Below are positions 37,699-44,103 of a stretch of DNA of 64,000 nucleotides, piece after piece. Under the pieces are notes generated by a model that did no database searches, had not been told where the DNA came from, and saw only the letters and a program-made list of their open reading frames with translations. The DNA is from Myxococcota bacterium. GTDB lineage: Bacteria; Myxococcota_A; UBA9160; UBA4427. The first letter of the stretch is position 1; each line of letters opens with the position of its first letter. Position numbers and translations under genes: made by a program. The stretch is taken from contig OZ252299.1 of NCBI GenBank assembly GCA_965250285.1, forward strand, positions 1,344,001 to 1,408,000, read 5' to 3'.

Positions 37699-38514
37699 AT
37701 GGCCACTATCTGGTCTCTACTGGGGATCGAAACGGCGTACGCTATGACGATGGCACGAAGCCCCGCTCGATTCTGGATCGTTGTCACGGTCTGCGCCCTA
37801 CTAATAATCGCCCTCGTCGCGGTGTGGGCCTTCGGATTGAAGCCGGACCAGGCCCTCGCGGTCCTCGGGGCCGCTGTGTTCCTTGCAGTCGGCGGAAGTT
37901 ACCTGATCAGTTGGCTTGGAAGCCGACGTGTGGCTACGGGGTCAGCGCCAGGCATTGCATCCGTGAGCGACCCGGAGACATTGGAGCGAGGAGGCGAAGC
38001 GTCGTCTGAGAGGCCGGCTTCCGCCGCGTCAGGGGCATGGTCTGCCGGATCCGCGGACGCTGCTACGCCTTCTGCGGCCGCCGGGACCGACGCGGCTGGG
38101 AGCGTGGCGGCGCTCGGCTTCGACGAGCATATCGGGGACGTCGTCGGTCTGAAGGAGCGCACCGAGAGCAAGGGAGGCGTCACCGAGTACGTCTGGAACT
38201 TCAGGGTCGTGCGCTTCAGCCCCGACGGTAAGCAGCTCCCGAGCGTGTCCGTTGAGATGCGTGGTAACGGATTCGAGGGCGGGCTGGTGGACGGCGACCG
38301 GGTGCGACTGCCAAAGGTACCTCCGGGTGGCGGGACGGTGACGCTCTCGGTGCTGCAGAACCTCACGAATGGTGGCGAGGTCCGAGTGAAGGGCGCGGGC
38401 TTCTGGGGATCGTTCAGCAATGTAGTCGCCAAGGCGGGCGCGCTGCTGGCCATTCTCTTCTTCGCGGCGATGATCATCGGAATCCTGGCGAAGCTCGCCG
38501 AGGATGCGTTTTGA
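37699..38514 (+). CDS. Membrane protein (2 N-terminal TMs, beta-rich domain, C-terminal TM)
   Basis: Hydrophobic segments; VWNFRV.RF..G..LPSV.VEMRG..FEG.L.DGDRV; stop overlaps next start; start uncertain (37699/37744). Confidence 0.75.
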   Translation: MATIWSLLGIETAYAMTMARSPARFWIVVTVCALLIIALVAVWAFGLKPDQALAVLGAAVFLAVGGSYLISWLGSRRVATGSAPGIASVSDPETLERGGEASSERPASAASGAWSAGSADAATPSAAAGTDAAGSVAALGFDEHIGDVVGLKERTESKGGVTEYVWNFRVVRFSPDGKQLPSVSVEMRGNGFEGGLVDGDRVRLPKVPPGGGTVTLSVLQNLTNGGEVRVKGAGFWGSFSNVVAKAGALLAILFFAAMIIGILAKLAEDAF

Positions 38515-41567: not shown

Positions 41568-44103
41568 CATGCCCGGTGCAGAAGCCGCCGTCGAGCAGCA
41601 GGATCGCGACCAACAGCAACAGCAGCGCGATAGCCAGCAGCAGCGGGAGGTTGCGAGCGAGCGGGGCGACAAAGGGCGGGACAGACCCGATCAACCGAGG
41701 ACGGGAGAAAGCGCGGGAGCCGAGCGATCGTGGCGCGCCGACGTGTCCGCGGACAACGCCGCCCGAAGGGAGTCAGGCGAGCAGCGCAGCGATCAGGGGG
41801 CGCGGGATCGCAACGAGCAGCCGGGTAGGCGTCCCGGCGACCTGGCTCAGGAGAAGATCGGGTTCGGCGTCAACGAGTCAGCGGTGGACCGCGTTCGCTT
41901 TGAAGCCATGTACGCGGCACTTGTCCGCGATGCGGCGGACAAGCTTCAGGACCCGAGCTACGAGATCGTGATCCGCGCTGGTGCGAGCCGCAGCGGGGAG
42001 TTCATGCACAATATGGAGCTCAGCCTTAAACGCGCCGAGGAGCTGCGGCAGTGCCTGGTCGAGAAAGGCGTCGAGGCGCAGATCGTGATCGATCCAGTCG
42101 GTGAGCAGGACGCAGCCGAAGCTGGGGTCGAGGATGGCACCGAGAACTCTGATGACCGCGCCGCCGTCCTCTCTCTAAGAAAGATCGATGACCCCGCCGG
42201 TCTGACCGACGCAGAGAAGCGAGCTTTGGCTCCGAAGCTGGAGCAGGGCTTTAGAGACGCCGCCGATCAAGTCGATACCGCCGTCGCCGAGCTTCGAGAA
42301 AGAAAGAGCGTCTGGTCGCCAGACGATTCCGTTCTGGTCGAGGTGAGGATCGAGGCCTCGCTGCTCGAGTCAAGCAACTTGAATCGCGACGTCCTTATCC
42401 TGGCGCTGGAGGCGGCGCTCGGCGATACCGATATCAGCTTGCGCGAGATCATTCACTCCCTGCCGCGCACGGACTCAACCTACTTTCAAAGTGAAGAGGC
42501 CTTGCGCGAACTGATCCGAGAGGCTCTCGCGCGCGGCGAGAACAAGATCCACTACGAGACCAATGGCCAAGGCATCCGGCAGTTGCTCGATTCCCTTTCG
42601 AACCGTCGGGCCTTTCGGGCGCGGATGCTCCGGGAGGCGGCTCAGCGTCTGCACGACGCACCCGACTATGCTGGACGGGCGATCGCAGACATCTACATCG
42701 GTCACGTGAACGGGCTGACCCAGCTGCTAAATGGGCTGTTCGATACCAGCGTCGCGGTGCCCAATGCCTTGCAGAGAATCCGCGGCGCGGAGCGCATTGG
42801 AAGCGGCGAGTACATCCCGCAGATCGGCTACCTCTCGAGCTACGGAGAGAAATACGGAAGCACGATCGAGTTCGGGGCGATCCTCGGATTGATCCTCGTC
42901 GGGGGACCGGCGGCGATGCGCGGCGCCACTCGGGCCTTTTCGTCCTTCGAAGCCGGGGCGATGAGGGCGCTCGAGAGATTCACGGTCGGGGGTTTGAACA
43001 TTGGTCGCTGGGTCGGAAACGGCCTGTCCGCCGGCTATAGAGCGGGGCTTGTCGCGGAGTCCGGATTCTCCGGGTACGACCTGGGAACAAACCTTCTCAC
43101 GATCGTGTCGGGCAACGTCTACGAGTCCGGCTCGGAGCGGCCTGCAACCGAGCAGGAGATGAAGGACGCGTGGGAGTACGTCGCGAAGGCTGCGGCGATG
43201 ACTTCGGCAGGCTTCCTCTCCAGCCGGCTGCATGGCCGACCGCTGCCCGAAAGCGACGCGGAGCACCCCAACCGGAACGAATCCGACCAGGCCGCGCAGC
43301 GCGAGACGACGGAGGCTCAGGCGGCAGCGCGGCTCGGCGCGGGCATGGAGGTAGCCGACTACATGGGCGCAATCCGCTTGAAGGAGATGCCGCGGAACAG
43401 CGCGGGCCTTGCGTGGGACCACGAGAATCACCCGACTGCTCCGCGTCACGCCTGGGAGCCAGGCATGCCTATCGACATGCCTGGGCATGACGGCCTCTAC
43501 CCCCGCTATGGCTCCGGCACGATCCGCCAGCGGTGGTGGCGAAATCGAGCCTACTTCGAGATTCAGGCGCGCAATCGAGGTGCGGAGAGGCTCACCGACG
43601 GTGGGAACCCGGTGGCGCAGCTAACGGACGCGGAGTTGCAGATCCTTCTCCGCGACGGACGATCGAGCATCCTCAATCCTTCCGGTGCGTATTCCTCGCG
43701 ATGGGAGCTTGAGCACTGGCGTAGCCAGCAACAGGTGAGGACTGCGATCGAAGAGCTCCACCCCGACGGGACGGTGTTCAAGGAGAACAATCTCGCTGGC
43801 CGCTTGATAGAAGAGGGCCACCCCGATCAACTATGGGAGTGCATGAGGGTCGAGCACGGTTTCTGGGACCGCTTCGCGAATCAGGGGCTCGACTGGCGGC
43901 ACACGGGCCAAGGCGACCTGCGAATGTTCTTCCCCCTCCAGCGAATGACCGACTTGAACCTCCTCAGGCTGGTCGAGACGGCTCGCCTGAATAGGTCGAA
44001 CTTCGACCGGACGCCGCGAACCCGGAGGCTGCATCGCGCGATCGTCCACGAAGTCGAGCGGAGAGGCCTCGACGTCGAGCCCCCGGAGTTCTCGCCGGAC
44101 TGA
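41560..44103 (+). CDS. OmpA-domain protein with TM and probable C-terminal HNH/EndoVII-fold nuclease toxin
   Basis: OmpA-like AS.SG...N.ELS.KRA..L...G..R; TM FGAILGLILVGG; C-terminal TIRQRWWRNRA...WELEH...VEHGFWD. Confidence 0.6.
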   Translation: MNDMPGAEAAVEQQDRDQQQQQRDSQQQREVASERGDKGRDRPDQPRTGESAGAERSWRADVSADNAARRESGEQRSDQGARDRNEQPGRRPGDLAQEKIGFGVNESAVDRVRFEAMYAALVRDAADKLQDPSYEIVIRAGASRSGEFMHNMELSLKRAEELRQCLVEKGVEAQIVIDPVGEQDAAEAGVEDGTENSDDRAAVLSLRKIDDPAGLTDAEKRALAPKLEQGFRDAADQVDTAVAELRERKSVWSPDDSVLVEVRIEASLLESSNLNRDVLILALEAALGDTDISLREIIHSLPRTDSTYFQSEEALRELIREALARGENKIHYETNGQGIRQLLDSLSNRRAFRARMLREAAQRLHDAPDYAGRAIADIYIGHVNGLTQLLNGLFDTSVAVPNALQRIRGAERIGSGEYIPQIGYLSSYGEKYGSTIEFGAILGLILVGGPAAMRGATRAFSSFEAGAMRALERFTVGGLNIGRWVGNGLSAGYRAGLVAESGFSGYDLGTNLLTIVSGNVYESGSERPATEQEMKDAWEYVAKAAAMTSAGFLSSRLHGRPLPESDAEHPNRNESDQAAQRETTEAQAAARLGAGMEVADYMGAIRLKEMPRNSAGLAWDHENHPTAPRHAWEPGMPIDMPGHDGLYPRYGSGTIRQRWWRNRAYFEIQARNRGAERLTDGGNPVAQLTDAELQILLRDGRSSILNPSGAYSSRWELEHWRSQQQVRTAIEELHPDGTVFKENNLAGRLIEEGHPDQLWECMRVEHGFWDRFANQGLDWRHTGQGDLRMFFPLQRMTDLNLLRLVETARLNRSNFDRTPRTRRLHRAIVHEVERRGLDVEPPEFSPD

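What the first reader, a model, noticed from the sequence alone, without database searches (positions are those of the whole stretch)
37699..44103. Translationally coupled operon: membrane protein + HerA/FtsK-like ATPase + OmpA-domain toxin-like protein, a possible minimal toxin export system
Seen: three genes with overlapping stop/start codons (TTGA at 38511; 8-nt overlap at 41560-41567) near the integrase end of the island. The ATPase has intact Walker A/B and the R-x-Y-G...Q motif. The third protein has no N-terminal signal peptide yet carries a peptidoglycan-binding OmpA-like domain, a TM and a nuclease-like tip. Known: HerA/FtsK/VirB4/EssC-family ATPases drive T4SS and T7SS substrate export, while defence HerA systems pair with Sir2 or nuclease partners. 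Inference: the partner set matches no named system I recognise and suggests ATPase-driven delivery of a polymorphic toxin, or a membrane-associated defence module.
Basis: partly seen in the sequence, partly recalled or inferred. Interest (0 to 1): 0.8.

Follow-up and report, generated by a model that had tools for sequence, protein, structure and literature searches.

The report
Mobile ATPase cassette with polymorphic cargo
Three overlapping genes on a mobile island form a cassette that recurs across many bacteria and some archaea: a membrane-anchored small protein and a VirB4-shaped ATPase stay constant while the third gene swaps toxin-like ends behind a floppy leader, which likely makes it an undescribed, needle-free way of handling and exporting toxins (untested).

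Summary
The operon is real and is one copy of a widespread cassette. In the ATPase clade that holds the window, the membrane partner lies in 80 of 88 loci with room to see it, and 80 of 95 have a closely coupled third gene; 64 of those 80 start with a polar, low-complexity leader (control 27 of 799). The third gene is polymorphic (45 tip clusters in 52 proteins) and carries known toxin domains in some loci. The membrane protein is predicted as an OB fold plus transmembrane anchor; the ATPase is predicted VirB4-shaped and soluble. The window's tip is shared with eCIS (DUF4157) effectors, and the OB protein also sits beside Streptomyces eCIS loci, yet this genome has no eCIS, T4SS, T6SS or T7SS marker. 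Corrections: the OmpA-like domain lacks the Asp of the GHxD motif, the 'TM' in protein 3 is marginal, nuclease activity is only a lead, and no immunity gene follows. Best reading (0.45): the ATPase grips the disordered leader and moves cargo across the cytoplasmic membrane. Main rival (0.25): an intracellular, ATP-gated self-killing module. No description found in 10 literature searches; two key papers were not readable.

The parts
35169..35245 (+). tRNA-Val(CAC), integration site; its 3' end (35212-35249) is repeated about 40.8 kb downstream, outside the window
   Evidence: 38 bp, 94.7% identical, genome 1420039-1420076
35282..36559 (-). tyrosine integrase of the island
   Evidence: Phage_int_SAM_3, Phage_integrase
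37699..38514 (+). gene 1: membrane protein; two N-terminal hydrophobic helices (aa 27-45, 52-70), low-complexity linker, conserved OB-fold domain, C-terminal membrane helix (aa 246-264); exact start uncertain
38116..38391 (+). OB-fold domain of gene 1 (predicted), the family-defining part
   Evidence: model pLDDT 92.5; best structural matches SSB/PriB/RPA/CcmE OB folds, Z 7.8, rmsd 3.3, 82 aligned; generic fold, no function implied
38511..41567 (+). gene 2: soluble HerA/VirB4-family ATPase; N-terminal alpha/beta domain, DUF87 core, C-terminal helical domain with conserved Cys902/906/913/987
39666..39689 (+). Walker A (aa 386-393)
   Evidence: pattern in 92 of 93 full-length clade ATPases
40368..40391 (+). 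Walker B (aa 620-627)
   Evidence: 93 of 93
40488..40523 (+). R-x-Y-G...Q motif (aa 660-671)
   Evidence: R660, Y662, Q671 invariant in 31 of 31
41560..44103 (+). gene 3: polymorphic cargo protein, 847 aa, no signal peptide, no same-strand immunity-like gene behind it
41560..41844 (+). polar low-complexity leader (about aa 1-95), predicted disordered from composition
   Evidence: hydrophobic fraction 0.07 in the first 60 aa; 2 of 799 control genes are that low
41902..42111 (+). degenerate OmpA-like domain (aa 115-184), GHxD Asp replaced by Ser
42862..42918 (+). Gly-rich hydrophobic segment (aa 435-453); marginal as a membrane anchor
43345..44100 (+). C-terminal tip (about aa 596-847) shared with eCIS/DUF4157 effectors; E716-x-E718-H719, H766, D770 intact; HNH-like nuclease is a lead only
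   Evidence: inconclusive

Best explanation
This is a self-contained, mobile three-gene cassette in which a predicted VirB4-shaped ring ATPase, likely tethered at the cytoplasmic membrane by the OB-fold membrane protein, would grip the disordered leader of the co-encoded polymorphic protein and move it unfolded across the membrane. Shown: the cassette, the constant pair, the variable third gene with a polar leader, toxin-family tips in some loci, intact ATPase motifs. Predicted: the folds. Inferred: that the leader is the targeting signal (by analogy with eCIS cargo, where a disordered N-terminus and an ATPase are required for loading), that gene 1 anchors the ATPase in the role VirB3 plays for VirB4 (recalled), that its membrane helices form or recruit the pore, and that holding the cargo unfolded makes an immunity gene unnecessary. 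In this copy the exported protein would carry a degenerate OmpA-like domain and an eCIS-type, possibly nucleolytic tip.
For: Constant pair: gene 1 family in 80 of 88 clade loci, 73 directly upstream; pairwise identities of the two proteins correlate (Mantel r 0.69, 88 pairs, shuffle maximum 0.15; kinship alone can give this). Rearranged loci keep all parts: in L028 and L051 gene 1 is convergent downstream and a polar-leader gene is divergent upstream. Leader: 64 of 80 against 27 of 799. Polymorphism: 45 tip clusters in 52; papain-fold amidase, Ntox4, DUF4329, NucA-type nuclease, Pput2613 deaminase, Tlde1+CHAP in the clade, CDI-EC869, LHH and zincin in the neighbouring clade. Domains that act outside the cytoplasm, on proteins without a hydrophobic N-terminus: CHAP+Tlde1 (L123), LysM (L067), OmpA-like in 11 loci. 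A classical LHH+SUKH toxin-immunity pair in L079. ATPase model: top Foldseek hits are full-length TrwK/VirB4; core matches DndH-C Z 33.6, VirB4 C-domain Z 33.2, HerA Z 26.9, and TrwK spans residues 34-758 (Z 17.8, rmsd 14.4). Topology: FHA before the OB domain in L004 and PASTA at the C-terminal end in L011 suggest OB inside, C-terminus outside. No other known export route in the genome. Literature: disordered N-terminal loading sequences and an ATPase are needed for eCIS cargo loading (10.64898/2026.05.27.728243 and PMC11495950, passages); many PVC-type toxins lack immunity genes (PMC3482391, passages).
Against: No dedicated channel: gene 1 usually has a single conserved membrane helix (110 of 128 have one after the domain) and no other conserved membrane gene was found among 118 flanking proteins, except a small family behind 8 loci. 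The host is probably diderm (PEP-CTERM protein; inference) and nothing explains outer-membrane passage or entry into a target cell. Only 13 of 54 loci have any globular-looking same-strand ORF after gene 3, few of them immunity-like, and the window has none. 21 of 59 complete polar-leader proteins are low-complexity throughout, with no evident enzyme. By sequence the ATPase's closest solved relatives are DNA-translocating and anti-phage HerA proteins, and OB folds often bind nucleic acid. The OmpA-like domain has lost the motif Asp.
Confidence: 0.45

Rival explanations
1. Intracellular, ATP-gated self-killing or anti-phage module: the ATPase holds or turns over the effector by its leader at the membrane, the OB domain (with zinc-ribbon or FHA extensions) senses incoming nucleic acid or stress, and release of the tip kills the producer.
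For: Immunity genes mostly absent; one small anchor suffices in monoderms, diderms and archaea alike; HerA partners effectors in known defence systems and PADLOC HerA/mad8 models hit the core (E 1.8e-18); OB fold resembles SSB/PriB; zinc ribbon before the OB domain in 37 of 93; common in multicellular lineages; the S. coelicolor CIS acts on its own cell via a membrane protein (PMC12237407, abstract start and passages).
Against: Flanks are not defence islands: of 118 nearby proteins about 5 have a defence-like family (TIR, NB-ARC, FRG, methylase, AAA_30). Cell-wall domains on some cargo and a SUKH pair imply action outside the producer's cytoplasm. Genes 1 and 3 have no convincing PADLOC match.
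Confidence: 0.25
2. Accessory of contractile injection systems acting in trans: the pair loads or anchors cargo for an eCIS encoded elsewhere, and the window's copy is an orphan that arrived on an island.
For: 27 of 50 scanned tip homologues carry eCIS_core. In 401 Streptomyces-genus genomes, 7 of 11 gene 1 homologues have no full-length ATPase, and all 6 fetched lie at the end of an eCIS locus. The gp19 tube gene is in 31 of 54 cassette genomes (19 of 38 outside Streptomyces) at E<=1e-20, against 27 of 251 and 39 of 201 in two phylum samples.
Against: 21 of 54 cassette genomes, including this closed one, have no tube gene at E<=0.001; no eCIS gene among 118 flanking proteins; none of 101 downstream proteins has eCIS_core; eCIS has its own AAA+ loader.
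Confidence: 0.12
3. Nucleic-acid transfer device in the manner of Ced or TraB: OB domain binds single-stranded DNA, the ATPase pumps it, and gene 3 is a pilot or strain-identity tag.
For: HerA/CedD similarity, SSB-like OB fold, island location.
Against: CedD score 74 against cut-off 600; no multi-pass CedA-like channel, relaxase or conserved mobile context; does not explain toxin-family tips.
Confidence: 0.08

Closest known systems
eCIS/PVC cargo and its AAA+ loader (DUF4157 effectors; Pvc15, Alg15)
   Same: Disordered N-terminal leader plus variable C-terminal effector, handled by a dedicated ATPase; frequent lack of immunity genes; the window's tip and OmpA-type domains occur in this effector pool.
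   Different: ATPase is HerA/VirB4-type, not AAA+; no DUF4157 in any gene 3 scanned; no tube, sheath or baseplate in the cassette or in this genome; a membrane OB protein instead.
VirB3-VirB4 of type IV secretion (R388 TrwK; PDB 8rtd, 7o42; T. pseudethanolicus VirB4, 4ag5)
   Same: Overall ATPase shape, soluble motor next to a small membrane protein.
   Different: Extra Cys-rich C-terminal domain; partner is an OB fold; no VirB10/TrbI or CagE_TrbE_VirB match in the genome.
Type VII (ESX) export of polymorphic toxins (YueA/EssC/EccC)
   Same: FtsK/HerA-superfamily pump with polymorphic-toxin cargo lacking Sec signals.
   Different: One ATPase domain and no membrane helix instead of a membrane-bound multi-domain EssC; no WXG100/LXG domain; found in diderms and archaea.
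Anti-phage and repair HerA systems (Sir2-HerA/Nezha, DUF4297-HerA, HerA-NurA, DndH/TdpB)
   Same: Core fold and closest solved sequences.
   Different: About 1030 aa rather than about 570; N-terminal domain aligns with VirB4's; partner is hypervariable, not a fixed nuclease or Sir2; NCBIfam scores far below cut-off.
NF033849 'ser_rich_anae_1' and sister Streptomyces ATPases
   Same: Best NCBIfam hit (109 bits); sister ATPases are also followed by acidic low-complexity genes and small immunity-like genes (L178 calpain-like + DUF6406; L179 NF033532).
   Different: Cut-off 650 not met; the six sister loci viewed (L177-L182) lack the OB partner and the N- and C-terminal similarity.
CisA of S. coelicolor CIS
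   Same: Single-pass membrane protein at an eCIS locus with a flexible cytoplasmic N-terminus (PMC12237407, passages).
   Different: CisA's folded domain is outside and resembles substrate-binding domains; here the folded OB domain precedes the helix.

Membership tests
Polymorphic toxin system | Interchangeable C-terminal toxin domains at one locus position | tested here: met
   45 tip clusters in 52 proteins; named toxin families; window tip shared with other effectors
Polymorphic toxin system | Adjacent immunity gene | tested here: not met
   None in the window; at most a handful of 54 loci; met in L079
Polymorphic toxin system | Toxic activity of the tip | not testable with these tools
   Motif intact; family assignment not significant
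Type IV secretion | VirB4-type ATPase | tested here: inconclusive
   Fold matches; no CagE_TrbE_VirB match
Type IV secretion | Core channel genes (VirB10/TrbI and companions) | tested here: not met
   No TrbI in a 95% complete one-contig genome, control rang; none among 118 flanking proteins
Type VII secretion | Membrane-bound multi-domain FtsK ATPase and WXG100 substrate | tested here: not met
   No membrane helix, one ATPase domain; no WXG100 in the genome, control rang
eCIS/PVC | Tube (gp19) gene and DUF4157 effectors | tested here: not met
   gp19 absent here while found in 40 of 61 genomes in the same search; DUF4157 not found (whose own control was blank)
Type VI secretion | Sheath VipB | tested here: not met
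   control rang
Anti-phage HerA systems | Fixed Sir2, DUF4297 or nuclease partner; curated score | tested here: not met
   42 bits against cut-off 800; no such partner
Anti-phage HerA systems | Protection against phage | not testable with these tools
   needs plaque assays
Ced DNA import | CedD/CedB ATPase with CedA-type channel | tested here: not met
   74 bits against 600; partner is OB plus one conserved helix
Peptidoglycan-binding OmpA-like domain | GHxD Asp and LSxxRA Arg (their binding role is recalled, from no call) | tested here: not met
   Arg kept, Asp is Ser against E. coli Pal

The most novel reading that the evidence does not exclude
A two-protein secretion pathway: a VirB4-derived motor and one OB-fold membrane protein export intrinsically disordered-leader cargo, drawn from the eCIS toxin pool, without a needle, in bacteria of both envelope types and in archaea; the same OB protein serves eCIS loci as a membrane adaptor, so the two systems share cargo logic and a part.
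Probability: 0.35. Interest if true: 0.92.

Novelty: new variant of a known kind. Interest (0 to 1): 0.75.

Why it matters
If it exports, it is a far smaller protein-secretion machine than type IV or VII, with a transferable leader, and it gives a direct test of whether a VirB4-type ATPase can translocate protein with only a small anchor. If it acts inside the cell, it is a new ATP-gated death switch of multicellular bacteria. Either way the third-gene slot is a source of unclassified toxin domains (73 of 101 without a Pfam family), and the OB protein is an unnoticed eCIS-linked component.

Tried and rejected
Complex prediction of ATPase aa 12-900 with the OB domain gave no verdict (score 0.00). 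No RNA holder listed among sequencing runs; a contig of run X1 covers 35217-46000 without a difference, but may be the source sample. Middle of protein 3 (aa 205-600): no homologue but itself in one length-limited search. Gene 1 single-sequence search found one relative; the family emerged only from neighbourhoods. Gene 1 has no Pfam family (DUF5666 in 22, CcmE in 7 of 118 members, weak). The 222-aa ORF at 44120 reads as an off-frame ORF, not an immunity gene. ATPase not found in 40 relatives searched; gene 1 in 3 of 201 genomes of the phylum including this one. First leader control (8 of 125) was biased by a hydrophobicity filter, so the coupled-gene control is quoted. Nine loci with split or frameshifted ATPases were dropped by eye before the downstream count, and a few picked ORFs (L011, L021, L091) look off-frame. 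One search scored only 2 candidates per genome. Earlier findings: none by sequence or place; the 8 listed by words describe other systems. Literature: 10 full-text searches listed no paper describing this cassette; of PMC3482391 and PMC7159879 I saw passages only, no supplements. Makarova et al. 2019 (PMC6509191) and Iyer et al. 2004 (PMC521647) are not held and could describe archaeal copies or the ATPase family.
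Full report
1. Observation. The three ORFs, both overlaps and the ATPase motifs are as described. They lie just inside a roughly 41-kb island: tRNA-Val at 35169-35245, integrase at 35282-36559, and a 38-bp copy of the tRNA 3' end at genome position 1420039; G+C falls from 0.686 genome-wide to 0.56-0.67 per kb. 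Each gene is single-copy in the genome and the ATPase was not found in 40 relatives. Three labels need softening: the OmpA-like domain has Ser where Pal has the Asp of GHAD, the hydrophobic segment of protein 3 is marginal, and the tip has no significant family match.

2. The cassette. The ATPase has 259 relatives among 7992 scored candidates, mostly full length at 34-50% identity. Named hosts span Actinomycetota, Chloroflexota, Acidobacteriota, cyanobacteria, Bacteroidota, proteobacteria, planctomycetes and archaea. A profile of the gene 1 domain hits 118 of 161 loci. A tree of the ATPase core defines a clade of 107 loci containing the window (FastTree support 0.939). In it, gene 1 is present in 80 of 88 loci with at least 1.2 kb upstream, 73 directly upstream. 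Of 95 loci with an intact ATPase end and 500 nt downstream (nine split loci dropped), 80 have an ORF of 100 aa or more starting within -25 to +130 nt, 45 overlapping the stop; 64 of the 80 have at most 17% hydrophobic residues in their first 60, against 27 of 799 coupled genes of this genome. Where the order is shuffled the parts can stay together (L028, L051), though in L033 and L052 I saw no third gene. Flanks are unrelated housekeeping and mobile genes with no conserved secretion or defence set (118 proteins).

3. The parts. Gene 1: the conserved core folds as an OB barrel followed by a long helix (pLDDT 92.5), matching SSB/PriB/RPA/CcmE at Z about 7-7.8, which identifies the fold only. 110 of 128 members have a membrane helix after the domain; the N-terminus varies (zinc ribbon in 37 of 93, FHA, membrane hairpin here). 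FHA in front and PASTA behind suggest a cytoplasmic OB domain (inference). Gene 2: no membrane helix; model pLDDT 87.2; top Foldseek hits are full-length TrwK/VirB4; the core matches DndH-C (Z 33.6), VirB4 (33.2) and HerA (26.9), with TrwK aligning over residues 34-758 at high rmsd. By sequence the nearest solved proteins are HerA-type. Cys902, 913 and 987 are invariant in 31 of 31 and Cys906 in 26, a likely metal site in a C-terminal domain that the structure searches barely tested. Gene 3: 52 complete proteins of 250 aa or more fall into 45 tip clusters. Of 101 downstream proteins scanned, 28 have a Pfam family, among them papain-fold amidase, Ntox4, DUF4329, NucA-type nuclease, Pput2613 deaminase, Tlde1+CHAP, CDI-EC869, LHH, zincin, and OmpA in 9; a haloarchaeal copy has LysM. 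21 of 59 are low-complexity throughout. Only 13 of 54 have any globular-looking same-strand ORF behind them, four of these a Gln-rich membrane family; one clear toxin-immunity pair, LHH+SUKH, is in the neighbouring clade.

4. The eCIS link. The window's tip has 79 hits including itself; 70 end within 40 aa of the C-terminus, and 27 of 50 scanned (mostly the longer ones) carry eCIS_core/DUF4157. Similarity starts near aa 596, as for a swapped tip. E718, H719 and H766 are invariant in 69 of 69, D770 in 68, all intact here. In 401 Streptomyces-genus genomes gene 1 occurs in 11: 4 beside a full-length ATPase, 7 without. The 6 solo copies fetched abut eCIS genes: DUF6519 in L183 and L184, Baseplate_J in L185, a DUF4157 effector in L183 by Pfam, the others by eye, each with a gp19 tube gene about 17-19 kb away on the same contig. 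Cassette genomes carry gp19 more often than two phylum samples (31 of 54, or 19 of 38 outside Streptomyces, against 27 of 251 and 39 of 201 at E<=1e-20; one of the 27 is an unpublished genome, and size and kinship are uncontrolled). But 21 of 54 have none at E<=0.001, including this 95% complete single-contig genome, which also lacks TrbI, VipB, WXG100 and CagE_TrbE_VirB with working controls.

5. Mechanism. A ring ATPase with intact motifs, always coupled to a protein whose only constant feature is a long polar leader, mirrors eCIS loading, where a disordered N-terminus and an ATPase are both required (10.64898/2026.05.27.728243, PMC11495950; passages). The VirB4 shape, the membrane partner and cell-wall-directed domains on signal-less cargo point to movement across the cytoplasmic membrane (0.45). 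The missing channel, missing outer-membrane step and missing immunity genes keep an intracellular self-killing or defence switch alive (0.25); PVC-type toxins also often lack immunity genes (PMC3482391, passage), so that point does not decide. Trans-acting eCIS accessory (0.12) and DNA transfer (0.08) are weaker; about 0.1 is left for something else, such as display of disordered proteins for self-recognition. All steps beyond gene content and predicted folds are inferred.

6. Known systems and novelty. Membership fails for type IV, VI, VII, eCIS, Ced and the named anti-phage HerA systems; it works like eCIS cargo handling or type VII export. Ten full-text searches listed no description of the cassette; passages of Zhang 2012 and Kaur 2020 mention HerA/FtsK only for type VII, type IV or inactive effector domains. 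Makarova 2019 and Iyer 2004 could not be read, and supplements were not seen, so prior mention cannot be excluded. I file it as a new variant of polymorphic-toxin system with an undescribed handling module; interest 0.75.

Noticed in passing
L183:6803-7420, L184:6788-7435, L185:6862-7473, L186:6935-7582, L187:6942-7709, L188 (G551): Solo zinc-ribbon/Pro-rich/OB/membrane-helix genes sit at the distal end of one Streptomyces eCIS type, convergent on the DUF6519 gene; a candidate eCIS membrane adaptor distinct from CisA.
   Followed up: partly
L177-L182 (20 of 401 Streptomyces-genus genomes): Sister ATPases without the OB partner are followed by acidic low-complexity genes and small immunity-like genes (calpain-like + DUF6406; NF033532), with an M48 peptidase gene and a 630-780 aa protein upstream in several; possibly a second cassette type.
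   Followed up: partly
L026, L030, L031, L058, L102, L110, L115, L001 (e.g. L115:7682-8302): A Gln-rich, Trp-motif membrane protein without Pfam family recurs in 8 loci, mostly behind OmpA-type third genes; absent from the window.
   Followed up: partly
L125, L126, L130, L131, L137, L147: A compact version: about 105-aa OB-only gene, ATPase, 220-300 aa third gene, and in five of them a 113-116 aa membrane gene.
   Followed up: no
L072, L078, L133, L142, L144, L150, L158: The outer ATPase clade is surrounded by Ser/Thr kinases, zinc-ribbon proteins and, in L158, a further AAA-type ATPase by eye.
   Followed up: no
L004, L022, L030, L034, L047, L066, L093, L099: Two polar-leader genes in tandem behind one ATPase.
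   Followed up: no
window 60375-64000 and L161 (genome 1402001-1421500): Rest of the island: 2123-aa RHS-repeat protein, a serine-recombinase-like ORF (L161:14559-15332) and an AAA/primase-helicase-like ORF (L161:15744-17333) near the right repeat; labels by eye.
   Followed up: no
window 50717-51664 and 51964-52479: A protein with a weak nucleoside 2-deoxyribosyltransferase-like C-terminus (E 5e-4) and a small helical ORF that may be HEPN-like (by eye); possible defence cargo.
   Followed up: no
window 35215-35246: Contigs of run X1 break at the tRNA-Val 3' end and island depth (53) exceeds the left flank (21), not so in X3; may reflect cells with and without the island (contig depth is weak evidence).
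   Followed up: no
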